A stretch of DNA of 64,000 nt. Source: a virus (Duplodnaviria; Caudoviricetes). Below are positions 8,068 through 64,000 of this stretch, piece by piece. Numbering within the stretch: the stretch's first letter is position 1; every line of letters starts with the position of its first letter. A program made the translations under genes and the position numbers. The DNA is taken from positions 1 to 64,000 of IMG/VR virus record IMGVR_UViG_3300011335_000731, one strand, 5' to 3'. The notes under the pieces were generated by a model, which saw only the letters and a list, made by a program, of their open reading frames with translations, was not told the DNA's origin and did not search any database.

Positions 8068-8796
8068 ATGGCACTAACAATTGGCACCGGAATCACCATA
8101 GGTGGTGGTATCACATTTGAAGCGATATTTCCACCGCCCACACCTTTGCCGGCAGCGTTGAATCTTGATGCCGGCAATCCTGCAAGTTATCCAGGCACTG
8201 GATCTACTTGGACTGACACAGTAGGAGGAATGGTATTTACTCTTGTTAACGGGCCAACATATAGCAGTGATAACGGTGGGTATATACAGTTTAACCCTGG
8301 GGCCGGGCAGTACGGGTATAGCTCCACAAACTTAGGCACCTTAGCCAACTGGTCAATTGAAGCCTGGCACTACTATGATGGCACCAATACCCCTAGTGGA
8401 CCCAACATATTCACAGAATTCTCATACGCTGGTGGCACTATCAATCTTGGATTGGGTTCCAATAGCGGTGCTGCTGATTTACAGACTTGGTGGTATGGTG
8501 CGGGATTTCAAACCACTGCGCCATACACATTAACATCGGGCAACTGGTATCAGATTGTGGGCACATTTGATGGCACTACTCTCAACTTATATGTAAACAA
8601 CACCCAGGTAGAAACTGCCAATGCACCGCCAGGTGGCGCTGCTAATCCTGCAATTGGATATGGGTTGATGACGCGTTGGGATCCGGGTGGTTTGTGGGGC
8701 GGACGCTTGAGTATCGTGCGTATCTACAACACAGATATTGGTGCTGCCGGCGTCGAACAAAACTGGAATGCCAACCGAGCCAGATTTGGTCTTTAG
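8068..8796 (+). CDS. LamG/concanavalin-A-like lectin domain virion protein
   Basis: LNLDAGNPASYPGTGSTWTD, WYQIVGTFDGTTLNLYVN, LSIVRIYN ... QNWNA pattern typical of phage LamG proteins. Confidence 0.85.
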   Translation: MALTIGTGITIGGGITFEAIFPPPTPLPAALNLDAGNPASYPGTGSTWTDTVGGMVFTLVNGPTYSSDNGGYIQFNPGAGQYGYSSTNLGTLANWSIEAWHYYDGTNTPSGPNIFTEFSYAGGTINLGLGSNSGAADLQTWWYGAGFQTTAPYTLTSGNWYQIVGTFDGTTLNLYVNNTQVETANAPPGGAANPAIGYGLMTRWDPGGLWGGRLSIVRIYNTDIGAAGVEQNWNANRARFGL

Positions 8797-9947
8797 ATTT
8801 TAAAGAAGCCCAAGAATTTGTGCATCTTGTTGATCACACTATCCCAGTCACCCATCCGAGGTTGACGATACAGTCTAGCACTGGGATACCAAGGTGAATC
8901 ATCACGCTTGAGCAACCAGCGCCAGCAGTTACCATACGCATTCAATGGAATCCAAACAGGACGACCCATGGCTCCTGCCAAGTGTGCATTAGCAGTATCT
9001 ACTGATATCACAAGATCCAAGTGATGCATGAGTCCTGCGGTATCACTAAAATCAGTTATAGTACCTGGAAAACATTCTGCACCAGCAGCAGTGATCACAG
9101 CAATTTCTTCGTCGGTAGCATCCATCTGCAAGTTGATCCATTGATGTTCAGGATTGCGGCGTATGAGTTCAGCCATCTTTTCCACTGGTATGCTTTTGTG
9201 AATGTGAATCCAAGAGTCTTTACGGCCGCTCCAACACACACCAATCCTCATGCGTTTTTTGGCACCTAATCTATCTGCCCACTCTTGTGCTTTGGCAGGA
9301 GTAGCAGCAATGTATTGTAGATTGTGTGTGAGATTATCCAAAGTTGTTCCAATGATCCGTGGCACGCTCATCATGGGAATCCAGTAATCGTATTCACCAA
9401 GTTCTTCACCAGGTCCGTAGATACCGATTACATTGCCAGCAGGAGCAGGGAACAATGGCTTCACTCCGGAACTTAGTACCAGTTTAATTTGGGCACCAGC
9501 AGCATTGAGATTGGCTACAAATCGCAGGAACTGGATCTGATCACCTAGCCCTTGTTCGCCAACTAGTAAAATTGTTTTTCCTTTTGGATCTTCACCTTGC
9601 CACTCTGGTTTAGGCAGTTTAGGTTTGTTGCCAGCTAAGTGTTCATAGCGCCATCTTGCTTCGTAGTATTTCCAACCAGATTCGTAATCACCTTTGAGCA
9701 AGTAAGCCACTGCTAGATTGAATTCAGCAGTGACATTTTTTGGTTCAATGTTGTATGCGGCATGCAGGAATGGGATAGCTCGTTCAGGATAGCCCATTTC
9801 TCTCAACACATTGCCGTAGTTGTTGAATGCAGCAGGATGATTGAAATCTTCCGCAAATACCTGTGCATAGCATTTCAATGCCAGTTCGGGATGATGTTCA
9901 GCACGATGTTGGTTGCCTTGTTCAATTAGTTGGTCAATGTTATTCAT
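8793..9947 (-). CDS. TPR-repeat glycosyltransferase (GT-B, GT9-like C-terminus)
   Basis: Likely start MNNIDQ at 9947. N-terminal TPRs (AAFNNYGNVLREMG), EQGLGDQIQFLRF, DLVISVDTANAHLAGAMGRP, WYPSARLYRQ. Confidence 0.85.
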   Translation of the reverse strand: MNNIDQLIEQGNQHRAEHHPELALKCYAQVFAEDFNHPAAFNNYGNVLREMGYPERAIPFLHAAYNIEPKNVTAEFNLAVAYLLKGDYESGWKYYEARWRYEHLAGNKPKLPKPEWQGEDPKGKTILLVGEQGLGDQIQFLRFVANLNAAGAQIKLVLSSGVKPLFPAPAGNVIGIYGPGEELGEYDYWIPMMSVPRIIGTTLDNLTHNLQYIAATPAKAQEWADRLGAKKRMRIGVCWSGRKDSWIHIHKSIPVEKMAELIRRNPEHQWINLQMDATDEEIAVITAAGAECFPGTITDFSDTAGLMHHLDLVISVDTANAHLAGAMGRPVWIPLNAYGNCWRWLLKRDDSPWYPSARLYRQPRMGDWDSVINKMHKFLGFFKI

Positions 9948-9952
9948 ATGGA

Positions 9953-9958
9953 TATTTA
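9953..9958 (-). promoter_or_regulatory. Late-promoter motif TAAATA for TPR-glycosyltransferase
   Basis: TAAATA on the minus strand 5 nt before ATG 9947; divergent from the motif at 9998. Confidence 0.55.
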
Positions 9959-10092: not shown

Positions 10093-10920
10093 ATGGGACG
10101 TCCTCTAAAAATACAGAAATACAGTTTAAACACTGGTGTCGGTAGCCCCGGCGCAAACACACCTGTGGATCTTGCTTATCCACCATTCAGCGCACTTGAT
10201 GTGCCTGTTTACAATGCACCTACACAGACATTGGATGCAGCCCAATTCCTAGGCGTGGTAGGTGGATCGCCCCCTACCAGCCAACCCAGCGCCACATACC
10301 CTGTGGTCACAGCATTTGTTAATATCACCCTGGCCAATGGTTCATCTACTTTTGCACTTGCTGGATCATACGCAGGCCGTATCATACGCCAAAAAGGCAG
10401 CCACAAATATCTAGTAGCGTACACAGGTGGAACCACTGCAGATGGCGCTTTTATTGTTGGTCAAGCATATCAGATCGTTGCTCTTGGTTCAACTAACTGG
10501 CAAACAGTGGGCACCGGAACAGGCACAGTAGCAGCTGGTGATATCTTCACTGCCACAGCAGCCAATGGAGGCGGCAACGGTACTGCATACCCAGTTGGCG
10601 TGTGCGTGTTGACCAATGATACCACACCAGCAACAGGTCTCATGGCCATTGGATACGAATCAGGAGACAGCGCAGCAGCCACAGCCAGTAACCTTACTAA
10701 CAAGTGGGTGCGTGACTGGGCCGGTACCACAGGAACCTACAGCGATAACAACCTGGGTGAAGTTAGCTACACCAGCGAACTTTACTATGTTGCTAACTTC
10801 TTCACAGACGAAGGTGGTGTTGCACAGTCAGGTCTGGAAGTAGATACTGCTACAGAATCCGTTGCAGGTGCACCAGCTGGATACATCCCACTGGCAGTTA
10901 TCAACAATGCAACTTCCTAA
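10093..10920 (+). CDS. Virion structural protein (MGRPLK-type, unknown function)
   Basis: Likely start MGRPLKIQK at 10093 after AAGGAG; A/G/T-rich; RIIRQKGSHKYLV motif; late promoter upstream and terminator downstream. Confidence 0.6.
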   Translation: MGRPLKIQKYSLNTGVGSPGANTPVDLAYPPFSALDVPVYNAPTQTLDAAQFLGVVGGSPPTSQPSATYPVVTAFVNITLANGSSTFALAGSYAGRIIRQKGSHKYLVAYTGGTTADGAFIVGQAYQIVALGSTNWQTVGTGTGTVAAGDIFTATAANGGGNGTAYPVGVCVLTNDTTPATGLMAIGYESGDSAAATASNLTNKWVRDWAGTTGTYSDNNLGEVSYTSELYYVANFFTDEGGVAQSGLEVDTATESVAGAPAGYIPLAVINNATS

Positions 10921-10935
10921 AGTTTAGGAACCCTG

Positions 10936-10969
10936 AATCCTCTCAGCTACATACTGAGAGGATTTTTTT
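10936..10969 (+). terminator. Intrinsic terminator with TACATA late-promoter variant in its loop
   Basis: Perfect 11-bp stem AATCCTCTCAG/CTGAGAGGATT, loop CTACATA, followed by a T-run ending at ATG 10970. Confidence 0.8.
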
Positions 10970-11557
10970 ATGACCATAGCATTTGTATTGGGCAATGGAC
11001 AAAGCCGAGCAAGTATAGATCTAGTGCAACTCAAGCAACTGGGTCCTATCTACGGCTGCAATGGGCTGTACAGAGATTGGGAACCAGACTGTCTTGTGGC
11101 CACAGATCGTCCTATTGCCGAAGCTATACAACGCAGTGGCTACAGCAAAAAAAATAGATTCTATACAAGAAAACCCCTGCCTGATTCTGGTGCTCAAATA
11201 GTTCCTAGAAAATATCATGGCAACAGTTCAGGACCTATTGCCTGTGCTTTAGCAGCCATAGATGATTACACTCGAATCTATATGTTGGGATTTGACATGG
11301 GACCAAGTCCTAGCATGAGATTTAACAATGTGTATGCTGGTACAGAATTCTACAAAGCGCCAGATGCGGCACCCACATTTACCGGAAATTGGATACGCCA
11401 ATTGGCTAGTATAGCCGGAGACTTTCCAAAAGTGCAATTTATCCGTGTTTGCGGACCCACTAGTGCCGAGATCAAAGAGTTCAAGAACATTGAAAACTTT
11501 GAAACCATAGACATCAAACTGTTCCGACATCGCTTAGACACCAACGACGGCCTTTGA
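10970..11557 (+). CDS. MptE/Maf (DUF115)-like, sialyltransferase-fold nucleotide-sugar transferase
   Basis: FVLGNGQSR, IYGCNGLY, CLVATD, SSG, IYMLGFDM motifs resemble the Maf/GT29/GT42-type Rossmann-like fold. Confidence 0.55.
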   Translation: MTIAFVLGNGQSRASIDLVQLKQLGPIYGCNGLYRDWEPDCLVATDRPIAEAIQRSGYSKKNRFYTRKPLPDSGAQIVPRKYHGNSSGPIACALAAIDDYTRIYMLGFDMGPSPSMRFNNVYAGTEFYKAPDAAPTFTGNWIRQLASIAGDFPKVQFIRVCGPTSAEIKEFKNIENFETIDIKLFRHRLDTNDGL

Positions 11558-23192: not shown

Positions 23193-24377
23193 ATGAAATA
23201 TCTACATCCGTACATTGAGAACTCCGAAGATCCCACAATCAACTTCTTGCTAGGGCAAGAATATGAAAACATAGGACAGACCGGTGCAGCAGTGAGTTTC
23301 TATCTACGCACAGCAGAGCGTAGCACCACTGACCAACAACAATACGAAGCACTCATGCGATGCTGTATCTGTTTAGAAAAACAAAAAACTCGCGACGACA
23401 CTGAAAAAGGTCTATTGCTCAAGTCTATTGCGTTGATTCCTGACCGTCCTGAAGCATATTTCTTGTTGAGCAGACTGTACGAGAAACGAAGAGAATGGCA
23501 GGAAAGTTATACCACAGCAGTGATGGGTTTGACCTATGGTAACTTTGATCGCACACCCGTGATCACTGATCAGTATCCGGGCTATTGTGGATTGATGTTC
23601 CAGAAAGGTGTGGCAAGTTGGCATGTGGGCCTTACTGAACAAAGCCGCCAGATCATGGTACATCTCAGAGACAACTTTAAGATGCATCAGATTTATATAG
23701 ATGCTATCAATCATAATTTGAAGATTTGCGGCATGCCCAAGTCTCCGCTGGTAGAAACCAAGTCAGCACCTGCTGTGCATGTGGCTAGAAAAAAATCAGA
23801 CATAATCAATCCGCAACCAAGACCGGGTGTGTGGATCGTGGACAACTTCTATCAAGATCCTGATGCTATTAGGAAGTTTGCCTTGGAGCAAGAGTACGAC
23901 CAAGGTGGCATTGGCAAGTATTACATAGGCAACCGCACCCGGCAGCAGTTCTTGTTTCCAGGATTGAAAGAAGAATTTGAATACATCATGAATCGCCGGA
24001 TCGAAAAGTGGGAAGAATACGGAATGAATGGCAGATTCCAAGTATGCAAAGAAGGTGAGCCCTTGGTATATCACTGCGATCCACAAAGGTGGGCTGGCAT
24101 GCTGTATCTCACACCCAACGCACCTTATCAGTCAGGTACATCAACACACGCACTCAAGGGCACAGATGTGCGACATCTCAGTCACCCTGACATAAACAAA
24201 TGCTTCAGACCGGGCAGTCAGAACCTGGATAGGACTATATTTGAACCGGTGGACAACTTTGGCAATGTGTACAATCGCCTAGTGATTTTCAATGCCGGGT
24301 ACTTACATTCGGCCACGGATTATTTTGGATACAACGACGACAACTGCCGACTATGGCAGATGTTCTTCTTTGATTAG
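23193..24377 (+). CDS. TPR domain + 2OG-Fe(II) oxygenase (DUF6445-like) fusion
   Basis: N-terminal TPR-like helices (RPEAYFLLSRLYE); C-terminal WIVDNFY, YHCD (HxD), NRLVIFNAGYLHSA (His), RLWQMFFFD (Arg). Confidence 0.8.
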   Translation: MKYLHPYIENSEDPTINFLLGQEYENIGQTGAAVSFYLRTAERSTTDQQQYEALMRCCICLEKQKTRDDTEKGLLLKSIALIPDRPEAYFLLSRLYEKRREWQESYTTAVMGLTYGNFDRTPVITDQYPGYCGLMFQKGVASWHVGLTEQSRQIMVHLRDNFKMHQIYIDAINHNLKICGMPKSPLVETKSAPAVHVARKKSDIINPQPRPGVWIVDNFYQDPDAIRKFALEQEYDQGGIGKYYIGNRTRQQFLFPGLKEEFEYIMNRRIEKWEEYGMNGRFQVCKEGEPLVYHCDPQRWAGMLYLTPNAPYQSGTSTHALKGTDVRHLSHPDINKCFRPGSQNLDRTIFEPVDNFGNVYNRLVIFNAGYLHSATDYFGYNDDNCRLWQMFFFD

Positions 24378-58485: not shown

Positions 58486-58927
58486 CAAGGTAGTTGCCAA
58501 CTTAGCGGCCATTCCAGACTTCATAGACCATTACGAAGCAGAGCTTGAACTGGCCAAACGAGATTGTAAAATCTCAGGTGTGCTGGAAAAGAACATCAGT
58601 GCCCTGCCCGGCATCACAGAACAACGCTTTAATCAACTACAGGAGATTGAAGCTGTGTTAAATTATCTCAACATCCAACTACGCAAGATACGCAGGAAAC
58701 ACTTCCAAAAGTATCTTGAAGGCTATGCCCGAGCACTAACTAGTCGTGATGCAGAAAAGTATGCAGAGGGTGAGGATGAAGTTGTGGACTTTGAAACCAT
58801 CATCAACGAAGTGGCATTGCTACGCAATCGTTGGTTAGGTATCATGAAAGGGCTGGATACCAAACAATGGCAAATGGGTCATGTGGTTCGCTTACGCACA
58901 GCAGGTATGGAAGATATTACACTATGA
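58475..58927 (+). CDS. uvsY: Recombination mediator UvsY
   Basis: IPDFIDHYEAEL, FNQLQEIEAVLNYL, AEKYAEGEDE, QMGHVVRLR; helical 150 aa near uvsX. Confidence 0.85.
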   Translation: MWYSKVVANLAAIPDFIDHYEAELELAKRDCKISGVLEKNISALPGITEQRFNQLQEIEAVLNYLNIQLRKIRRKHFQKYLEGYARALTSRDAEKYAEGEDEVVDFETIINEVALLRNRWLGIMKGLDTKQWQMGHVVRLRTAGMEDITL

Positions 58928-58940
58928 CCGATTTGCGTGA

Positions 58941-58946
58941 TACATA
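58941..58946 (+). promoter_or_regulatory. Late-promoter variant TACATA for gmd
   Basis: TACATA-CTGTT-ATG (58952); same variant as at 10948. Confidence 0.45.
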
Positions 58947-58951
58947 CTGTT

Positions 58952-59938
58952 ATGAAACGCACCGCATTTGTAACAGGCATGACCGGCCAAGACGGTCCTT
59001 ATCTAGCTAAACTGCTGATCGAAAAAGGCTATCATGTTTATGGCCTTGTAAAACGATACTCAAATCCTAACTTAGACAATATCAAGTGGTTGGGCATTGA
59101 GAACGACATTGAGTTGATCACCGGTGATATCACCGATGAAAACAACATGAATCATCTCATGCAAACACTCAAACCCAACGAGGTATACAATCTCGCAGCA
59201 CAGAGCTTTGTGGGCGCAAGTTGGGATCTTAACAAACTCACCACAGAAGTTAATTCTATAGGTGTGCTGAATCTACTTAATGCTATACGCACCCACAGCC
59301 CTAACACACGCTTCTATCAAGCCAGTACCAGCGAAATGTTTGGCAATGCCACAGAAGCAGGATCACAGGGCGAAACCACACCGTTCCGCCCACGCAGCCC
59401 ATATGGCGTGAGCAAGTTGTACAGCCATTGGATGACCATTAACTTCCGTGAAAGCTATAGCTTGTACGCCTGTTCAGGAATCTTGTTCAATCACGAAAGC
59501 CCGTTGCGTGGCCGTGAATTTGTCACACGCAAAGTCACTGACGGTGTTGCTCGTATCAAGCTAGGACTTGCAGATTCTATCACCTTGGGCAATCTCGACG
59601 CTCGTCGAGATTGGGGATTTGCTGGAGACTTTGTAGAAGCCATGTGGATGATGTTACAGCAACCCACTGCCCGTGACTATGTGATCGCTACCGGTGAGCA
59701 ACATAGCATTGGTGAACTATGTGATGTGGCATTCCGACATGCAGGCATTGAGGATTGGGCAAACTTGGTTAAATCTGATCCGCGATTCAAACGCCCTGCT
59801 GAACTGTACAGTTTGCTAGGTGATAGTTCCTCAGCTAGAAACATACTAGGATGGCAACCAAGAACCAATTTTGCTACCATGATCCAACACATGGTAGACG
59901 CTGATCTAAAGAGACTTCAACAATCTACTCAACGGTAA
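58952..59938 (+). CDS. gmd: GDP-mannose 4,6-dehydratase
   Basis: TGMTGQDG, YNLAAQS, YQASTSEMFG, PRSPYGVSK, LFNHESP, GNLDARRDWG motifs. Confidence 0.96.
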   Translation: MKRTAFVTGMTGQDGPYLAKLLIEKGYHVYGLVKRYSNPNLDNIKWLGIENDIELITGDITDENNMNHLMQTLKPNEVYNLAAQSFVGASWDLNKLTTEVNSIGVLNLLNAIRTHSPNTRFYQASTSEMFGNATEAGSQGETTPFRPRSPYGVSKLYSHWMTINFRESYSLYACSGILFNHESPLRGREFVTRKVTDGVARIKLGLADSITLGNLDARRDWGFAGDFVEAMWMMLQQPTARDYVIATGEQHSIGELCDVAFRHAGIEDWANLVKSDPRFKRPAELYSLLGDSSSARNILGWQPRTNFATMIQHMVDADLKRLQQSTQR

Positions 59939-60739
59939 TCCTGAGGTGATCTCACCTAGTGTCCACTCTGTGTGGCACAGTTGTTCTAACCACGCTGCTC
60001 TTTCGGGCATGCGTGGTTTTTCTATCTGAGCGAAGTCTGTGTTGGCCACTGGTAAGGCCATGCTATCCGCACCCACAAATGCTGGAACACCATCAATGAT
60101 AGCTTGACTGCCCGGTCCGGAGTTTTCATTGACCACTGCCCAAGCACGCCCTAGACTGCTGCGGAAATCAAACTCATCATAGGTTCCACGCAAGGCCTGT
60201 GGTTGCTGTATCCGCACACCGGGTATGGGCTTCAATCGTTGTCTAGGATGTGGACGAACTATGATCTCACGATCAGTGTGTGCCCGTAGACGATCCACAG
60301 TTTGTTGTAACCATTGTTCAGCAGGTGGTAATCCTGCCCATTGTTCACTGTCTGTTCGTTGCATGGCTATCAAGATATGATCTCCTTGATGCCAAGGCTG
60401 TAGTCGCACAGCAAGTTTGCCGGCACGCCCGGGCTCAAATTCCTCAATCCAACCGGCACGACCATTCACACCATTGATACCTATCTTCCAGGTCACACCG
60501 CGCATGAGTTGCCCAACTTCTAACACTATCACAGGCTTTCCTGCTGCTGTGAACTCTTGCCATACAGCACGATTAGGAGCCATGCGCCCGGTCCATAACT
60601 GACTCCAGATCACAGCCACATCTGCAGAAGAGTTATGCTCTGTGACTCTTATACCGTTCTTTTTGCAGCCAGCAGCAAATGCTTCAAACACTGGGCCGGA
60701 GTTGAGTGCGCCAAATCTATTAAAAATACTGATCATCAT
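59906..60739 (-). CDS. KpsS/KpsC-like (Capsule_synth) glycosyltransferase paralog A
   Basis: Likely start MMISIF at 60739; IVRPHP, VVNENSGPGSQAIIDGVPAFV, WLEQLCHTEW. Confidence 0.65.
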   Translation of the reverse strand: MMISIFNRFGALNSGPVFEAFAAGCKKNGIRVTEHNSSADVAVIWSQLWTGRMAPNRAVWQEFTAAGKPVIVLEVGQLMRGVTWKIGINGVNGRAGWIEEFEPGRAGKLAVRLQPWHQGDHILIAMQRTDSEQWAGLPPAEQWLQQTVDRLRAHTDREIIVRPHPRQRLKPIPGVRIQQPQALRGTYDEFDFRSSLGRAWAVVNENSGPGSQAIIDGVPAFVGADSMALPVANTDFAQIEKPRMPERAAWLEQLCHTEWTLGEITSGLPLSRLLKSL

Positions 60740-60748
60740 ATATTGTAT

Positions 60749-60754
60749 TAAATA
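60749..60754 (+). promoter_or_regulatory. Late-promoter motif TAAATA (overlapping a divergent TTAATA)
   Basis: TAAATA 21 nt before ATG 60776; the minus strand reads TTAATA 6 nt before ATG 60739. Confidence 0.5.
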
Positions 60755-60775
60755 GTTATTCAAACTTGGAAGCCT

Positions 60776-61597
60776 ATGACAAAATACGCAGTAGTAACCA
60801 CATTCAATCAAGCAGGCTACGACAAGTACGCCAGCCGGATGATTGATACCTTCTTAAAAACCTGGCCCAAAGGTGTTGATCTTTATGTGTACACAGAAGA
60901 TTGCACAATCACACAAACAGCCACGAATCTACATGTGAGAAACTTGCACGAAGTAAGCCCGGAAATAGTTGCGTTCAAACAGCGATGGGGATCTGATCCT
61001 CGAGCTCGCGGCGAAGTAGCCACAGGACCTGCGGATGCCAAGGGCAAAGCACCGGGCATAGGATTCCGTTGGGATGCTATTAGGTTCTGCCACAAGGCCT
61101 ACAGTGTGTTCCATGCTGCTGCTAACTGCAAGACTGATGTGTTATTTTGGATGGATGCCGATATGGTATGTCATACCGGACCTACTGAAGCATTCTTAGT
61201 GCTACAGATGCCTGCAGATGTAGGGCTTGCTTATCTAGGCAGAGAAAAGAAGTTCAGTGAATGTGGGTTGTATGGCATGAACTTGAATAACTCCGTGACC
61301 AAGTTGTGGTTGAAAGAGTTCCAACTAGCATATGATTCTGGGCGCCTTATGACCATGGCTGAATGGAATGATTGCTGGGTGTTTGACGAGACTAGAAAAG
61401 AAGTACAAGCCCAACATCCCGAATGGCGAGTACTGAACTGGAGTGCAGGATTGATCAAAGGTGAAGGGCATCCACTGATCAATACAGCCTGGGGTGGATA
61501 CTTAGATCATCTCAAAGGTAATAGAAAAGCTACCGGTCGAAGTCTTGGATCTGATCTCATCCGACCCAGAAACGAGCGTTATTGGAAGATCGGTTAG
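60776..61597 (+). CDS. GT-A-fold nucleotide-sugar transferase (DxD) paralog 1
   Basis: VVTTFN, FCHKAYSV, FWMDADMV (DxD), SECG, WNDCWVFD, DHLKG. Confidence 0.75.
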   Translation: MTKYAVVTTFNQAGYDKYASRMIDTFLKTWPKGVDLYVYTEDCTITQTATNLHVRNLHEVSPEIVAFKQRWGSDPRARGEVATGPADAKGKAPGIGFRWDAIRFCHKAYSVFHAAANCKTDVLFWMDADMVCHTGPTEAFLVLQMPADVGLAYLGREKKFSECGLYGMNLNNSVTKLWLKEFQLAYDSGRLMTMAEWNDCWVFDETRKEVQAQHPEWRVLNWSAGLIKGEGHPLINTAWGGYLDHLKGNRKATGRSLGSDLIRPRNERYWKIG

Positions 61598-62343
61598 TCG
61601 TTGTCTGTGGCACAGATGCCGTCAACATCGCCTTGAACATATTCAGCTTTTGAATGCTTGGCTTTGTAGTGAATAAGATGATCACCTAGTATGGTATGCC
61701 GCAGCGGAGTCTTGTAACTCTTACCAAACCCTGCACATAGATCAAATACAGCAGCATCGGGAACAACCGCTAACGCAGCACCAAACACATCATTGTCATA
61801 GTATCTACGCAGATCAGCGTAATCGCGTTCATGGTAACGACGACGATATTCAGATCTGAATGCAGCAAAATCTTCATGCTGAGTATTCACAGCAAAAATT
61901 CCAGTCTCGGGCACTAACCAATCACCTGGGTTGCCGCTTTTGTCTGTGACATACCTCACACCCATGTATGTGGTTAGATTACCGGGTCTTAATGCTCTGC
62001 GTAACAATTCAATAGGTATGGATTGCACAGTGATCACATCGGCATCTAACCACACTACCCATTCAGCAGGACTGTGATGTATGGCATGCATGAAACTGTA
62101 TGCTTTCTTGGCAAACTTTTTCATGCTCTGATTGAGATTGGTGTCCTGTTGATATCGTTCGTAGTCCGGATCTAACTGTGAGAAATCTATCTGGTGTATA
62201 CGGCTGTGCTCGGGCAATCGGAATTCTTCCACATAACAAGTGAGTCGAATATCTTCAGGCCAATGTTCTAGGAAACTGCTCACGCAATCTCGACCGATAA
62301 GGTCGTAGTACAGTTGATTGAAACTGGTGATTACTTGGATCAT
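61594..62343 (-). CDS. GT-A-fold nucleotide-sugar transferase (DxD) paralog 2
   Basis: Likely start MIQVITSF at 62343; FAKKAYSF, VWLDADVI, PETG, YYDNDVFG, IHYKA; aligns motif-by-motif with paralog 1. Confidence 0.75.
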   Translation of the reverse strand: MIQVITSFNQLYYDLIGRDCVSSFLEHWPEDIRLTCYVEEFRLPEHSRIHQIDFSQLDPDYERYQQDTNLNQSMKKFAKKAYSFMHAIHHSPAEWVVWLDADVITVQSIPIELLRRALRPGNLTTYMGVRYVTDKSGNPGDWLVPETGIFAVNTQHEDFAAFRSEYRRRYHERDYADLRRYYDNDVFGAALAVVPDAAVFDLCAGFGKSYKTPLRHTILGDHLIHYKAKHSKAEYVQGDVDGICATDND

Positions 62344-63305
62344 TTTGTTGCCCATTTCTTCATGTGTGCCCAGCATGCTCCTGAGCGTAGTTCTTCGTGG
62401 CTCCAGTGGAATTGGCTGATCCGTTGTATCCATGCTTCACGGTCAGGCATGAGTGGATTTTCTATGCGATGTATGCCCTGAGTGGCTATGTCTTTTGCTT
62501 GACTGCGCTCAGGATCTGTTAGGATCACAGGGATTCCTTCTATGGCTGCTGCCACTGCTGGGCTGGAGTTGTGATTCACTACCACCCAACAGTCCACAAA
62601 ATCATCTATGAGACTGGTTCCTTCTCCACTGACCGCAACATTGTTGATCTTGCGACCTTGGCACAGTTTCAACAGCCTCTCACAGTATTTCCTGGCCTTC
62701 TTGTCACCAGGATGTGGCCGTATGCGTATGGGTCGATCTGAATACTTGCGTATTTCAATTATGTTCTTCAATGCCCAATCTACCACATCCCATCCAGCCA
62801 TGCTCCATCCGCCATCACGCTGTAGGCATAGCAAGATATGATCGCCAGATTGTCGCCAGGGATGTAGTTGTACCTTGCAAAAAGCCTGCACTTGATTCCA
62901 TCGTTCAGGATCGGGAGACTGATCGCAGTATTCACCGGTGTTGGCAAAGATACCATCATAACTGTAACGCAGCCAATAGCCAGGATTGGTCTTGTTCTTG
63001 TATAGAAACAAGTTGCTGTCTGCGATTACTGTGCGCCCACCATGCGCTCGTTGCCCATCTAGGATCTCTTGTCTAAACTGTAGATGTGCAGCAGTCTTAC
63101 CATGCTCATGCACCCACCCTAAGATCACAGCAACTTCGCTGGGCTGATAGGTCATGTTGGTTTCGATTATGCCTTGATCACCTTGGGCATTGACACCTCT
63201 TACGAAATATCGCAATGTGTCAAGTTTGTCGTTGGCGTTCTTGAGACTTTCTTCTGTGTATTTCTCTTTTCGAGGCAGTGTGGCGGTGTAACTTATAACT
63301 CTCAT
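62340..63305 (-). CDS. KpsS/KpsC-like (Capsule_synth) glycosyltransferase paralog B
   Basis: ILLCLQR, IRIRPHP, VVNHNSSPAVAAAIEGIPV, WIQRISQFHW. Confidence 0.65.
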   Translation of the reverse strand: MRVISYTATLPRKEKYTEESLKNANDKLDTLRYFVRGVNAQGDQGIIETNMTYQPSEVAVILGWVHEHGKTAAHLQFRQEILDGQRAHGGRTVIADSNLFLYKNKTNPGYWLRYSYDGIFANTGEYCDQSPDPERWNQVQAFCKVQLHPWRQSGDHILLCLQRDGGWSMAGWDVVDWALKNIIEIRKYSDRPIRIRPHPGDKKARKYCERLLKLCQGRKINNVAVSGEGTSLIDDFVDCWVVVNHNSSPAVAAAIEGIPVILTDPERSQAKDIATQGIHRIENPLMPDREAWIQRISQFHWSHEELRSGACWAHMKKWATK

Positions 63306-64000
63306 TGTTCTTGCATCATCTTGAATGCTATTCCGTTTTGTAATTCACGAACATGATATTGTCCGTAAGCCATGCTGTGACACCATGCCATCAACAGGTC
63401 CTGATCTGGATAGAATACCTTTTCTATCATAGCAAGATCTCGATTGGCCACAGGTTCTGCTACATGACTGGGTGCTAACACAAACGCCGGCACACCTGCC
63501 AATATGCTTTCCACTGCTGCTATGCTGTTGAAAGTAACCAATGCATGCACATCTTGTTCTAACACTTGGCTCAAGGGTTCTTTCAATACTCGATCTTCTC
63601 GTTTGGGCGCACGCTCTCGAACTACCACAGGACGATCTGTGTGCTTTTTGATTTCGGCTACAGTTTCTTGTATCCATTCTTGCTGATCTATACCATAATA
63701 TCTGCAGGGCTTTTCATCTGGTGCTGCTACAATGATTTTGTGCCCTGATCGTCTTGGATGTATTTTCATACCCAATCGATCCCACCGGTCACTGGGTCTT
63801 GGTGTTATGGTTTTATGCTGTAGATCGTTACGCACTATCCTGTGATAGTGTTTGATACCTTGACTATTGCGTGTGCCCACATTGTTGCCCACATAACCTG
63901 AATCCATAAAATAGAAGGTGTTGCCATCTGCTAGGCACTGTTTCATGATCTTGTGCTTAAGGATGCCGCGCAGCACCAACTGATTGCGATCTACTTTTAT
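63302..64000 (-). CDS. KpsS/KpsC-like (Capsule_synth) glycosyltransferase paralog C (5'-truncated by window)
   Basis: FMDSGY, VVRER, LVTFNSIAAVESILAGVPAFV, WCHSMAYGQY; frame open to the window edge. Confidence 0.65.
   Translation of the reverse strand: MKVDRNQLVLRGILKHKIMKQCLADGNTFYFMDSGYVGNNVGTRNSQGIKHYHRIVRNDLQHKTITPRPSDRWDRLGMKIHPRRSGHKIIVAAPDEKPCRYYGIDQQEWIQETVAEIKKHTDRPVVVRERAPKREDRVLKEPLSQVLEQDVHALVTFNSIAAVESILAGVPAFVLAPSHVAEPVANRDLAMIEKVFYPDQDLLMAWCHSMAYGQYHVRELQNGIAFKMMQEQ

What the first reader, a model, noticed from the sequence alone, without database searches (positions are those of the whole stretch)
58941..64000. Candidate new system: late-expressed glycan synthesis locus for virion (fibre) glycosylation
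Seen: gmd, three Capsule_synth-like paralogs and two DxD GT-A paralogs packed contiguously and continuing past the window edge. gmd and both divergent GT arms have late-type motifs (58941, 60746-60754), as do the TPR-GT (9953) and Maf-like (10948) genes among the fibre genes. Known: Gmd makes the precursor of GDP-fucose, GDP-rhamnose and GDP-perosamine; virion glycosylation is established for giant viruses and some actinobacteriophages, but I know of no pathway of this complexity characterised in a T4-like phage. Inference: at least seven transferases plus methyl-, sulfo-, radical SAM and 2OG tailoring enzymes build a capsule-like glycan shield on Thr-rich collagen fibres and sheath. Late timing argues against host serotype conversion or DNA modification for this block.
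Basis: partly seen in the sequence, partly recalled or inferred. Interest (0 to 1): 0.85.

Follow-up and report, generated by a model that had tools for sequence, protein, structure and literature searches.

The report
Late-expressed glycan-building island, jumbo phage
An uncultured giant lake phage carries a conserved 12-kb block of about nine sugar-transferring and four methylating enzyme genes, switched on by the same promoter boxes as its particle genes, so it most likely sugar-coats its own particle, though no sugar has been measured.

Summary
The window is the first 64 kb of a 74-kb fragment (about 22% complete) of a PA5oct/Vibrio-2.275.O-like jumbo myovirus.

The island runs from 58,952 to about 70,885 between uvsY and an early ATPase gene. 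It holds:
- Gmd;
- three KpsC/WbbB-fold paralogs;
- two paralogs of a large Pfam-less WxDxD GT-A family;
- GT8, GT17, GT32 and a GT8-like gene;
- a PMI-type cupin;
- three to four methyltransferases.

It is syntenic in 80 related viral contigs.

Late timing is well supported. TAAATA is the virion-gene box (16 of 27 copies lie just upstream of starts, p about 1e-13). It heads the main island operons here and in relatives. The flanking ATPase gene has a conserved sigma-70 promoter.

Virion glycosylation is the best reading at about 50%. The core enzymes recur beside tail-fibre or head genes in Caulobacter phage CcrBL9 and a 43-kb podovirus, and none of the proteins checked has a membrane segment. 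The collagen-fibre target is not supported, and host-envelope remodelling remains a serious rival.

First-stage readers of this scan flagged look-alike islands in windows of other genomes.

The parts
58940..58946 (+). ATACATA box 5 nt upstream of the gmd ATG; a one-base variant of the ATAAATA late box
   Evidence: Present in 65 of 73 related loci, including loci where the upstream gene differs. Replaced by TAAATA in 6. It is the only one of 7 ATACATA copies in the contig that lies before a start codon.
58952..59938 (+). gmd, GDP-mannose 4,6-dehydratase (328 aa)
   Evidence: PF16363 1.7e-120. TIGR01472 scores 394 bits against a cut-off of 415. Matches 1RPN at E 9e-123 with catalytic residues kept.
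59906..60739 (-). B1, KpsC/WbbB-fold putative glycosyltransferase (277 aa); monocistronic and convergent with gmd
   Evidence: Paralog of B2 and B3. Carries Q-R-T-D and R-P-H-P motifs. It has no late box of its own.
60749..60754 (+). TAAATA late-type box, 21 nt upstream of the A1 ATG
   Evidence: Kept in all relatives where A1 faces B1. In 68 of 75 relatives the unit facing B1 starts with this box.
60776..61597 (+). A1, member of a Pfam-less WxDxD retaining GT-A family (273 aa)
61594..62343 (-). A2, paralog of A1 (249 aa from ATG 62343); last gene of the leftward operon, with an ATGA overlap with the B2 stop
   Evidence: DxD motif VWLDADVI.
62340..63305 (-). B2, KpsC/WbbB-fold putative glycosyltransferase (321 aa)
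63302..64000 (-). B3, third paralog (270 aa); runs to contig position 64114, beyond the window. It lacks the Q and HP motifs.
   Evidence: Beyond the window, in contig coordinates: TylF methyltransferase 64111-64782(-); GT8 64779-65468(-); PMI-type cupin 65465-65812(-); back-to-back late boxes 65818-65845; unknown gene 65850-66593(+); FkbM methyltransferase 66547-67311(+); Methyltransf_24 67321-67956(+); GT17 67953-68777(+); GT32 68723-69421(-); GT8-like 69449-70288(+); unknown late gene 70316-70885(+).
8793..9947 (-). TPR + GT9-family glycosyltransferase (384 aa), in the fibre gene cluster
   Evidence: PF01075 1e-7 plus TPR families. True start is at 9947. Homologous to the 'tibC' glycosyltransferase of podovirus MW202713 (E 5e-15). 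Syntenic in all relatives.
9953..9958 (-). TAAATA late box 5 nt upstream of the TPR-GT9 ATG
   Evidence: Present in 18 of 18 relatives.
10970..11557 (+). Maf-/sialyltransferase-like gene (195 aa) directly upstream of the 2421-aa collagen-like fibre gene
   Evidence: phrog_30607 7e-38; weak phrog_4603 alpha-2,3-sialyltransferase 1.6e-4; no Pfam hit. Syntenic in relatives. A lead only.

Best explanation
The block is a phage-encoded, cytoplasmic, late-expressed glycan assembly line.

Shown:
- Gmd can convert GDP-mannose into GDP-4-keto-6-deoxymannose.
- The island holds about nine soluble glycosyltransferase-type proteins: three of KpsC/WbbB fold and six DxD proteins (GT-A fold modelled for A1; GT8, GT17 and GT32 by Pfam; the GT8-like gene by an Atlas lead).
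- It also holds three to four sugar-type methyltransferases (TylF, FkbM, Methyltransf_24).
- These genes sit in translationally coupled operons headed by the TAAATA box that heads the sheath, tube, adaptor and fibre genes.

Inferred:
- Late in infection these enzymes build a methylated oligosaccharide containing a 6-deoxyhexose. The KpsC-fold enzymes may add an ulosonic acid such as Kdo, taken from the host CMP-Kdo pool.
- They attach this glycan to phage particle proteins, most probably tail fibres or other exposed virion proteins.
- The late, fibre-adjacent TPR-GT9 enzyme is the likely protein-priming transferase.

The acceptor protein and the sugar structure are unknown.
For: Gene functions.

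Late control:
- 16 of 27 TAAATA copies lie within 35 nt upstream of a start codon. TAAATA ranks first of the 64 A/T-only hexamers, p 1.7e-13.
- Outside the island these copies precede the sheath, tube, adaptor, fibre and virion-protein genes.
- Island boxes lie at 60749(+), 65823(-), 65840(+) and 70291(+). They are conserved in 46 of 48, 35 of 40, 10 of 10 and 68 of 75 relatives for the respective units.
- The island has no strong sigma-70 site. The flanking ATPase gene has a conserved TTGAC-N17-TATAAT promoter.

Conservation: the same gene order occurs in 80 IMG/VR contigs.

Context in unrelated phages:
- Caulobacter phage CcrBL9 has tail-fibre and tail genes, then a B-like, a GT8-like and an FkbM gene, then lysozyme, all on one strand.
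- Podovirus MW202713 has a tibC-like GT9, an A-like gene, a methyltransferase, a B-like gene and a PLP enzyme directly upstream of terminase, portal and capsid genes.
- This phage's TPR-GT9 is homologous to that GT9. It sits under a late box between fibre genes in all relatives.

Other:
- None of the 20 proteins checked has a transmembrane-like segment.
- No priming transferase or flippase was found in 635 kb of five related records.
- The A1 fold ties with enzymes that glycosylate proteins: PBCV-1 A64R, GlyE, glycogenin and COLGALT1.
Against: - No direct evidence exists for any glycan on any virion.
- The main island lies in the recombination/replication module, not among structural genes. 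The homologous Mosig cassette also lies next to RuvC, RNR and primase.
- GT8, GT9, GT32, Gmd and KpsC-type enzymes are typical of LPS and capsule synthesis, where acceptors are lipids. LPS-core transferases also lack membrane segments.
- B1 has no late box, and gmd has only a variant box.
- The records are 22-46% complete, so export genes could lie elsewhere.
- Late promoters in T4 also serve some non-structural genes.
- Fold matches for A1 are ties and name no acceptor.
Confidence: 0.5

Rival explanations
1. Host-envelope remodelling. The enzymes act on host lipid-linked intermediates (LPS core, O-antigen or a KpsC-type poly-Kdo glycolipid) at the inner face of the membrane. Host transporters then export the product. 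This would change the cell surface to block superinfection or to prevent progeny from re-adsorbing to debris. It is the reading given to the 'LPS' clusters of T4-like cyanophages.
For: - The families involved (Gmd, GT8, GT9, GT32, KpsC/WbbB fold) are classic LPS and capsule families.
- Known beta-Kdo transferases act on glycolipids or O-antigen (PMC10148158).
- Published precedent: P-SSM2 has 24 such genes and S-SCSM2R has 22, including kdsA and kdsB, both read as host-surface genes.
- The island lies outside the structural module.
Against: - Late-type boxes head the operons, leaving little time for surface turnover before lysis.
- No priming transferase or flippase was found in 635 kb of related records.
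- None of the proteins checked has a membrane anchor.
- Homologs lie within structural or late operons of a 43-kb podovirus and of CcrBL9.
- The gene order is fixed across the clade rather than hypervariable.
Confidence: 0.25
2. A non-virion, non-envelope product. The enzymes would make a free or protein-bound methylated oligosaccharide for another purpose. Examples are glycosylation of a non-structural phage or host protein, or a soluble or secreted glycoconjugate.
For: - TylF- and FkbM-type methyltransferases are known from natural-product sugar tailoring.
- Radical SAM and sulfotransferase cassettes lie nearby.
- No acceptor has been identified.
Against: - No scaffold-synthesis genes (PKS, NRPS or aglycone) lie in the 74 kb.
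- The genes neighbour fibre genes in other phages.
Confidence: 0.12
3. DNA hypermodification. The transferases would build a glycan on modified bases of the phage DNA to escape restriction, as T4 and other phages do.
For: - The island lies between uvsY and replication genes.
- Phage glycosyltransferases that decorate DNA with varied glycans are known (cited in PMC12619734).
Against: - Promoters are of the late type and no strong sigma-70 site lies inside the island.
- Nine transferases plus O-methyltransferases far exceed known DNA glycans.
- The KpsC-fold and retaining GT-A matches are not the T4 AGT/BGT type.
- No hydroxymethylase was seen in the 74 kb, but the genome is incomplete and this was not searched specifically.
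Confidence: 0.06

Closest known systems
Chlorovirus PBCV-1 capsid glycosylation (virus-encoded GMD, A064R/A64R glycosyltransferases with a methyltransferase domain)
   Same: - The virus encodes its own Gmd, several soluble cytoplasmic glycosyltransferases and sugar methyltransferases.
- The expected product contains 6-deoxyhexoses and O-methyl sugars (from established knowledge of PBCV-1).
   Different: - PBCV-1 is a eukaryotic giant virus whose glycan is shown on the capsid protein. Here nothing has been measured.
- There is no sequence-level homology to A64R; its Z ties with the GT6 and GT8 matches.
- This island also has KpsC-fold enzymes, which PBCV-1 is not known to use.
Mycobacteriophage virion glycosylation (Freeman et al. 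2023, cited in PMC12619734 and PMC12801897)
   Same: A tailed phage encodes glycosyltransferases that decorate its own capsid and tail-tube proteins. It is the only established virion glycosylation system in tailed phages.
   Different: - That system has one or two transferases in small siphoviruses of actinobacteria.
- Here there are about nine transferases plus methyltransferases in a jumbo myovirus with T4-type core genes.
- No homology was tested.
Retaining beta-Kdo glycosyltransferases KpsC (GT107), WbbB (GT99), KrkA; Pfam PF05159 Capsule_synth
   Same: - B1 and B2 keep an (R/K)-x-H-P motif about 35 residues after a Q-x(1-2)-D motif. This is the same order and spacing as QXXXD and HP in KpsC.
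- An A-family domain is fused to a PF05159 domain in protein P0122.
   Different: - PF05159 does not hit by sequence.
- The QXXXD spacing is not kept, and B3 lacks both Q and HP.
- Equivalents of Glu66 and His94 were not identified.
- There is no membrane anchor.
- Known members act on lipid-linked glycans in capsule or O-antigen synthesis.
- No phage-encoded kdsA, kdsB or neuB genes were found.
'LPS' / cell-wall gene clusters of T4-like cyanophages (P-SSM2, S-SCSM1, S-SCSM2R)
   Same: They are large blocks of sugar-nucleotide and transferase genes in T4-type lytic phages, with 22-24 genes and up to 13 transferases. They include GH130, TagD-like and Kdo-pathway genes. Their function is also untested.
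   Different: - They belong to a different phage lineage (gp23 below 60% identity).
- tblastn of the A and B proteins found no cyanophage.
- Those clusters are reported as variable between phages, whereas this island is fixed across its clade and headed by late boxes.
Bacterial autotransporter heptosyltransferases TibC/Aah (GT9-like) and TPR-bearing protein O-glycosyltransferases (OGT)
   Same: - The fibre-adjacent enzyme joins TPR repeats, most like OGT's, to a GT9-family domain.
- It is homologous to a podovirus gene annotated 'tibC'.
- In relatives the cupin gene is fused to an RfaE-domain-II-like heptose-1-phosphate adenylyltransferase (76 bits).
   Different: - No direct sequence match to the TibC or Aah structures was obtained.
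- The 'tibC' label is a depositor's annotation.
- In this contig the adenylyltransferase domain is absent.
Collagen-like glycoproteins BclA/BclA3 of Bacillus and Clostridioides spores (with SgtA) and mimivirus fibril glycosylation
   Same: Gly-X-Thr collagen-like fibres carry O-linked deoxyhexose and methylated sugars. This phage has a 2421-aa G-X-Q/T fibre next to late glycosyltransferase genes. The comparison rests on general knowledge and on an earlier scan note.
   Different: The A+B cassette occurs in two phages without collagen repeats. No SgtA-type GT2-TPR enzyme was identified here.

Membership tests
GDP-mannose 4,6-dehydratase (PF16363 / TIGR01472) | Full-length match above the family threshold | tested here: met
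   PF16363 scores 402.9 bits against a cut-off of 27 over profile positions 1-332. TIGR01472 scores 394 bits, just under its equivalog cut-off of 415. 1RPN matches at E 9e-123.
GDP-mannose 4,6-dehydratase (PF16363 / TIGR01472) | Rossmann GxxGxxG motif and the catalytic Thr/Glu and Tyr-xxx-Lys residues | tested here: met
   GMTGQDG, ASTSEMFG and SPYGVSKLY align with the same motifs of 1RPN.
Retaining beta-Kdo glycosyltransferases (GT99/GT107; PF05159 Capsule_synth) | The modified GT-B architecture particular to this group | tested here: met
   [not shown]
Retaining beta-Kdo glycosyltransferases (GT99/GT107; PF05159 Capsule_synth) | Sequence match to PF05159 | tested here: not met
   No hit in the whole contig at E up to 10. 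Only weak DUF6716 and TIGR04396 hits below threshold were found. hhalign of P0122's PF05159 segment to the B alignment gives E 0.0045 at probability 8%.
Retaining beta-Kdo glycosyltransferases (GT99/GT107; PF05159 Capsule_synth) | Invariant QXXXD motif with the nucleophilic Asp | tested here: inconclusive
   At the matching place after the strand, B2 has Q-R-D, B1 has Q-R-T-D and B3 has P-D-E. An acid is present but the spacing differs (motif). No residue-level structural superposition was available.
Retaining beta-Kdo glycosyltransferases (GT99/GT107; PF05159 Capsule_synth) | HP motif shared with CMP-sugar transferases | tested here: met
   R-P-H-P is present in B1 and B2 and in their orthologs. 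It is absent from B3.
Retaining beta-Kdo glycosyltransferases (GT99/GT107; PF05159 Capsule_synth) | CMP-beta-Kdo donor and retention of configuration | not testable with these tools
   This needs an enzyme assay. No phage kdsA, kdsB or neuB genes were found in five related records, so any donor would come from the host.
Retaining GT-A glycosyltransferases (GT6 / GT8 / A64R-like) | GT-A Rossmann-like fold | tested here: met
   [not shown]
Retaining GT-A glycosyltransferases (GT6 / GT8 / A64R-like) | DxD metal/nucleotide-sugar motif after a hydrophobic strand | tested here: met
   A1 has FWMDADMV and A2 has VWLDADVI. D127 and D129 are invariant in 57 diverse members.
Retaining GT-A glycosyltransferases (GT6 / GT8 / A64R-like) | Assignment to one CAZy family by sequence | tested here: not met
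   No Pfam, PHROG, NCBIfam or PDB sequence hit for the single sequence or the profile. The structural matches to GT6, GT8 and A64R tie within 1 Z unit.
T4-type late promoter | A conserved box related to TATAAATA, placed just upstream of virion genes and not of early genes | tested here: met
   16 of 27 copies of the TAAATA core lie before start codons (p 1.7e-13). They precede the sheath, tube, adaptor and fibre genes. The exonuclease and ATPase genes have TTGAC-N17-TATAAT instead. The full octamer TATAAATA occurs only twice in the contig.
T4-type late promoter | Late, gp55-dependent transcription | not testable with these tools
   This needs transcript data. gp55 and gp33 homologs were not searched.
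Virus-encoded virion glycosylation system | Glycan covalently bound to virion proteins and dependent on viral transferases | not testable with these tools
   The phage is uncultured and no proteomic data are available.
Virus-encoded virion glycosylation system | Transferase genes linked to structural genes in position or regulation | tested here: met
   Island operons carry late boxes. TPR-GT9 and the Maf-like gene lie inside the fibre cluster in all relatives. Homologs lie beside fibre or head genes in CcrBL9 and MW202713. The main island itself lies in the recombination module.
Bacterial LPS/capsule assembly locus | Polyprenyl-phosphate priming transferase, flippase/polymerase or ABC exporter | tested here: inconclusive
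   PF02397, PF00953 and PF01943 are absent from five related records totalling 635 kb. No membrane segments were found. However, these records are only 22-46% complete, and host genes could supply these steps.

The most novel reading that the evidence does not exclude
A portable phage cassette builds a methylated O-glycan on tail fibres or other exposed virion proteins of at least four unrelated lineages of phages of Gram-negative bacteria. Its parts are a KpsC-fold transferase, a GT8, a previously unnamed WxDxD GT-A family and FkbM/TylF-type methyltransferases, fed here by Gmd. The glycan would contain a deoxyhexose and possibly Kdo or another ulosonic acid. The lineages are freshwater jumbo myoviruses, a pelagimyophage, giant Caulobacter siphoviruses and a small podovirus. 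If true, this would be the first virion glycosylation system outside actinobacteriophages. It would also be the first case of capsule-type beta-Kdo-transferase-fold enzymes working on a protein.
Probability: 0.35. Interest if true: 0.8.

Novelty: new variant of a known kind. Interest (0 to 1): 0.62.

Why it matters
Self-glycosylation of virions is established for giant eukaryotic viruses and for a few mycobacteriophages, where it shields particles from antibodies. It is unknown for myoviruses of Gram-negative hosts.

This island is fixed in an abundant clade of lake jumbo phages. The A family alone has more than 2,600 relatives in the 90% clusters. Its core enzymes also occur in cultured phages (Caulobacter CcrBL9, CcrSC and CcrColossus; Pelagibacter Mosig), so the idea can be tested at the bench.

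If virions carry the glycan, three things would need re-reading:
- receptor recognition, particle stability and resistance to grazing or defence in aquatic phages;
- the 'LPS genes' long annotated in T4-like cyanophages;
- the range of KpsC-type enzymes, which would no longer be confined to lipid-linked capsule synthesis.

The work also defines a large unnamed GT-A family with an invariant WxDxD motif.

Tried and rejected
Genomic context came from the search for related loci and the annotated phage records instead.
- Megablast of the island against cultured phages found nothing.
- The canonical T4 octamer TATAAATA is not enriched: 1 copy in the window against 1.5 expected. Only the TAAATA core works as a marker.
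- Single-sequence and profile searches of A and B against PDB sequences gave only chance hits.
- PF05159 does not match the contig by sequence.
- A profile scan of bacterial genomes with the A alignment failed because no conserved block was long enough. The bacterial context of families A and B was therefore not examined.
- Searches for kdsB/neuA, neuB and kdsA in five related records were negative.
- Atlas search for the late gene at 70316-70885 gave only a weak carbohydrate-binding-module lead (0.86).
- The gene at 65850-66593 has no family hit.
- I considered that the 10948 TACATAC shared with gmd marks a common promoter. I rejected this because it lies in the loop of a terminator hairpin.
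- I considered co-occurrence with collagen repeats as a test of the fibre target. It failed outside the clade, on only two genomes.
- A viral-contig search with TPR-GT9 found only same-clade relatives, so it gives no independent context.

Full report
**What the sequence is**

The window is the first 64 kb of a single 74,146-bp viral contig. CheckV rates it 22% complete, which implies a genome of roughly 340 kb. The major capsid protein is 64-66% identical to those of the jumbo phages Vibrio 2.275.O, Sinorhizobium Phosso and Pseudomonas PA5oct. It is under 60% identical to cyanophage and T4 capsid proteins. The contig holds T4-type core genes: prohead protease, gp23, sheath, tube, terminase, gp32-like, UvsX, UvsY and UvsW. 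It is therefore an uncultured jumbo myovirus with T4-type core genes, not an ordinary T4-like phage. Eighty close relatives were recovered from IMG/VR, on contigs up to 160 kb.

**Checking the observation: gene content**

I fetched the rest of the contig (L001 = contig 58001-74146). In contig coordinates the island is:

| Coordinates | Strand | Gene | Evidence |
|---|---|---|---|
| 58952-59938 | + | gmd | PF16363 1.7e-120 |
| 59906-60739 | - | B1 | paralog family B |
| 60776-61597 | + | A1 | paralog family A |
| 61594-62343 | - | A2 | paralog family A |
| 62340-63305 | - | B2 | paralog family B |
| 63302-64114 | - | B3 | paralog family B |
| 64111-64782 | - | TylF methyltransferase | 2e-18 |
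| 64779-65468 | - | GT8 | 27.6 bits, above cut-off |
| 65465-65812 | - | PMI-type cupin | 5e-22 |
| 65850-66593 | + | unknown | no family hit |
| 66547-67311 | + | FkbM methyltransferase | 4e-13 |
| 67321-67956 | + | Methyltransf_24 | Pfam |
| 67953-68777 | + | GT17 | 2e-15 |
| 68723-69421 | - | GT32 / Gly_transf_sug | 6e-10 |
| 69449-70288 | + | GT8-like | Atlas 0.95-0.99; DxD motif LYFDLDTV |
| 70316-70885 | + | unknown late gene | no family hit |

uvsY ends at 58927. An AAA ATPase gene starts at 71120 and uvsW at 73653.

The paralogy claims hold. B1, B2 and B3 match one another at E 4e-13 to 2e-21, and A1 matches A2 at 4e-14. Gmd is about 60% identical to P. aeruginosa Gmd (1RPN, E 9e-123) and keeps its catalytic motifs.

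**What the two unnamed families are**

Family A has no Pfam, PHROG, NCBIfam or PDB sequence match. It is nevertheless large: 2,600 relatives among the 90% clusters and 1,262 representatives at 50% identity. An alignment of 57 diverse members has an invariant W-x-D-x-D motif (D127, D129). The AlphaFold model (pLDDT 95) is a retaining GT-A fold, with these top matches:

|---|---|
| BoGT6a (4ayl) | 14.3 |
| PBCV-1 capsid glycosyltransferase A64R (2p72) | 14.1 |
| GlyE | 13.6 |
| glycogenin | 13.3 |
| LARGE1 | 13.1 |
| COLGALT1 | 12.8 |

These scores are ties. They show the fold and the retaining GT-A type, not the acceptor.

In other proteins the A domain is fused to Methyltransf_24 and FkbM domains. 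In one case (P0122) it is fused to a PF05159 Capsule_synth domain.

B1 and B2 keep an R-P-H-P motif about 35 residues after a Q-x(1-2)-D motif. This is the order and spacing of QXXXD and HP in KpsC. The QXXXD spacing itself is not kept, and B3 lacks both Q and HP. PF05159 does not hit the contig by sequence. Membership in GT99/GT107, and a Kdo donor, remain unproven.

**Checking the observation: promoters**

TAAATA is the late-type box of this phage.
- 16 of its 27 copies lie within 35 nt upstream of a start codon on the same strand. Those upstream windows cover only 1.6% of strand positions.
- It ranks first among all 64 A/T-only hexamers, with a binomial p of 1.7e-13 against the A/T-hexamer background.
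- Outside the island it precedes the sheath, the tube, the head-tail adaptor, two virion structural proteins, a fibre-like protein and the 2421-aa fibre.
- The exonuclease gene is preceded by a TATAAT -10 box, and the ATPase gene by a full TTGAC-N17-TATAAT promoter that is conserved in relatives.

Inside the island the boxes are as follows.

| Position | Strand | Spacing to ATG | Unit headed | Conservation in relatives |
|---|---|---|---|---|
| 60749 | + | 21 nt | A1 | 68 of 75 units facing B1 start with the box |
| 65823 | - | 5 nt | cupin > GT8 > TylF > B3 > B2 > A2, a six-gene translationally coupled operon | 46 of 48, same spacing |
| 65840 | + | 4 nt | unknown > FkbM > Methyltransf_24 > GT17 | divergent partner box conserved alongside; 35 of 40 before the Methyltransf_24 gene |
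| 70291 | + | 19 nt | unknown late gene at 70316 | 10 of 10 |

A sigma-70 scan finds no more sites in the island than chance (30 against 27.3 +/- 6). The only two 11-of-12 matches lie in the intergenic region upstream of the ATPase gene, outside the island.

- gmd is preceded by ATACATA, not the late box. This variant is conserved in 65 of 73 relatives, even where the upstream gene differs and at variable spacing. It is replaced by TAAATA in 6 relatives. That fits a variant promoter but does not prove one.
- B1 has no late box on its own strand in 0 of 75 relatives. Its promoter is unresolved.
- The 10948 'motif' before the Maf-like gene is the loop of a CCTCTCAG/CTGAGAGG hairpin followed by seven T, that is, a terminator.

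The TPR-GT call is right. Its true ATG is at 9947, with TAAATA 5 nt upstream here and in 18 of 18 relatives.

**Conservation and relatives**

The order uvsX-(rSAM)-uvsY-gmd-B1-(variable slot)-A1-A2-B2-B3-(TylF)-GT8-cupin-(variable slot)-Methyltransf_24-GT17-GT8-like-(unknown)-ATPase is kept in all related loci long enough to show it. Identities are 85-98% for UvsX and 51-94% for the sugar genes. This is a fixed part of the clade's genome with a few variable slots, not a hypervariable island.
- GT32 is present in only 1 of 80 relatives.
- TylF is present in 13 of 80.
- In most relatives the cupin is fused to an RfaE-domain-II-like adenylyltransferase (76 bits). That domain is missing here.

Outside the clade, tblastn finds the A and B families in few cultured phages.
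- **Pelagibacter phage Mosig.** It has a cassette of a GT8-like gene, B, a sulfotransferase, B, GT8 (45% identical to ours), A, an FkbM-like gene and a methyltransferase. The cassette lies next to RuvC, RNR and primase.
- **Podovirus MW202713 (42.7 kb).** It has a 'tibC' GT9, A, a methyltransferase, B and a PLP enzyme directly upstream of terminase, portal and capsid genes on the same strand.
- **Giant Caulobacter siphoviruses.** In CcrBL9 the order is tail-fibre gene, tail gene, two unknowns, B-like gp176, GT8-like gp177, FkbM gp178, an unknown, then lysozyme.

This phage's fibre-adjacent TPR-GT9 is homologous to the podovirus GT9 (26% identity over 309 residues, E 5e-15). A core of B + GT8 + methyltransferase (+ A, + GT9) thus travels between four unrelated phage lineages. 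In two of them it sits in the structural or late region.

**How it most likely works**

Shown:
- The enzymes are soluble. None of the 20 proteins checked has a transmembrane-like segment.
- Gmd supplies GDP-4-keto-6-deoxymannose.
- There are six DxD proteins, three KpsC-fold proteins and three to four sugar-type methyltransferases.
- The operon heads carry the virion-gene box.

Inferred:
- Late in infection these enzymes assemble a methylated oligosaccharide containing a deoxyhexose on phage particle proteins.
- The late TPR-GT9 in the fibre cluster is the likely protein-priming enzyme.
- The KpsC-fold enzymes may add an ulosonic acid from the host CMP-Kdo pool. No kdsA, kdsB or neuB gene lies in 635 kb of related records.

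I put this reading at about 0.5.

Runs of 10 or more G-X-Y repeats are present in this clade but absent from Mosig and from the podovirus, both of which carry the cassette. That is only two genomes, so it weakens the claim without excluding it for this phage.

**Rivals**

- **Host-envelope remodelling, about 0.25.** It is favoured by the LPS/capsule character of every family involved, by the lipid acceptors of known beta-Kdo transferases, by the position of the island and of the Mosig cassette in replication modules, and by the published reading of cyanophage clusters (PMC1079782, PMC12801897). Against it stand the late boxes, the absence of priming transferases and flippases (the records are incomplete), the fixed synteny, and the structural-operon context in the podovirus and CcrBL9.
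- **Another product, about 0.12.** This would be a soluble glycoconjugate or a non-virion protein target.
- **DNA hypermodification, about 0.06.** It fits poorly with late control and with nine transferases plus O-methyltransferases.

**Novelty**

Virus-encoded virion glycosylation is a known kind (PBCV-1, mimivirus, mycobacteriophages). Big sugar-gene blocks in T4-type phages have been annotated before. The following have not, as far as the papers searched here show, been described:
- the combination found here;
- its late control;
- its fixation in an abundant freshwater jumbo-phage clade;
- the KpsC-fold paralogs;
- the unnamed WxDxD family;
- the recurrence of the core beside fibre genes in unrelated phages.

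I rate it a new variant of a known kind with unmeasured function.

First-stage readers of this scan flagged look-alike islands in windows of other genomes. Follow-up reports describe other candidate fibre-glycosylation modules in aquatic phages. Those notes are not independent evidence.

Noticed in passing
contig 65465-65812 (beyond window); L034:14025-14792: In most relatives the PMI-type cupin is the C-terminal half of a 255-aa fusion with an RfaE-domain-II-like heptose-1-phosphate adenylyltransferase (76 bits; also PF01467). In this contig and about a quarter of relatives only the cupin remains. The same TAAATA box sits 5 nt before whichever start is used.
   Followed up: partly
contig 65812-65850 (beyond window): Two back-to-back late boxes lie in a 37-nt divergent intergenic region, each 4-5 nt from its ATG with no Shine-Dalgarno sequence. 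This implies near-leaderless late mRNAs. The arrangement is conserved in 46 of 48 relatives.
   Followed up: partly
contig 68723-69421 (beyond window): The GT32 (Gly_transf_sug/Caps_synth) gene, convergent with GT17, is present in only 1 of 80 related loci. It looks like a recent insertion. TylF is present in only 13 of 80. Relatives carry extra FkbM-like or unknown genes in a slot between B1 and A1.
   Followed up: partly
window 10093-10920: This is a Thr/Gly/Ala-rich 275-aa protein (starting MGRPLK...) between TPR-GT9 and the Maf-like gene. It is preceded by ATAAATA at about 9998 and an ~89-nt leader. It evolves fast (45-93% identity in relatives, against 75-94% for TPR-GT9). It is a candidate acceptor protein.
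   Followed up: partly
window 10934-10969: A strong terminator-like hairpin (CCTCTCAG / CTGAGAGG plus T7) ends immediately before the ATG of the Maf-like gene, so that gene has no visible promoter of its own.
   Followed up: no
contig 70316-70885 (beyond window): This 189-aa gene of unknown function has a canonical TATAAATA box and a GGAG Shine-Dalgarno sequence, conserved in 10 of 10 relatives that have it. The language-model search gives only a weak lead to carbohydrate-binding-module-like domains (0.86).
   Followed up: partly
contig 70936-71087 (beyond window): Two tandem near-consensus sigma-70 promoters (TTGACC-17-TATAAT and TTGACT-17-TATAAT with TG) lie upstream of the phrog_1250 AAA ATPase gene. 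They are conserved in relatives and mark a sharp switch from late to early control at the island's right edge.
   Followed up: partly
window 23193-24377: This protein has N-terminal TPR repeats and a C-terminal DUF6445 / phrog_1644 'minor coat protein' region. It lies directly after the GH130-FkbM-radical SAM fusion gene and may be another tailoring enzyme near the fibre genes.
   Followed up: no
L082 (Pelagibacter phage Mosig 124832-130666): A cultured pelagimyophage carries a compact eight-gene version of the cassette, including a sulfotransferase gene between two B-like genes. This links sulfation to the glycan system in a phage that can be grown.
   Followed up: partly
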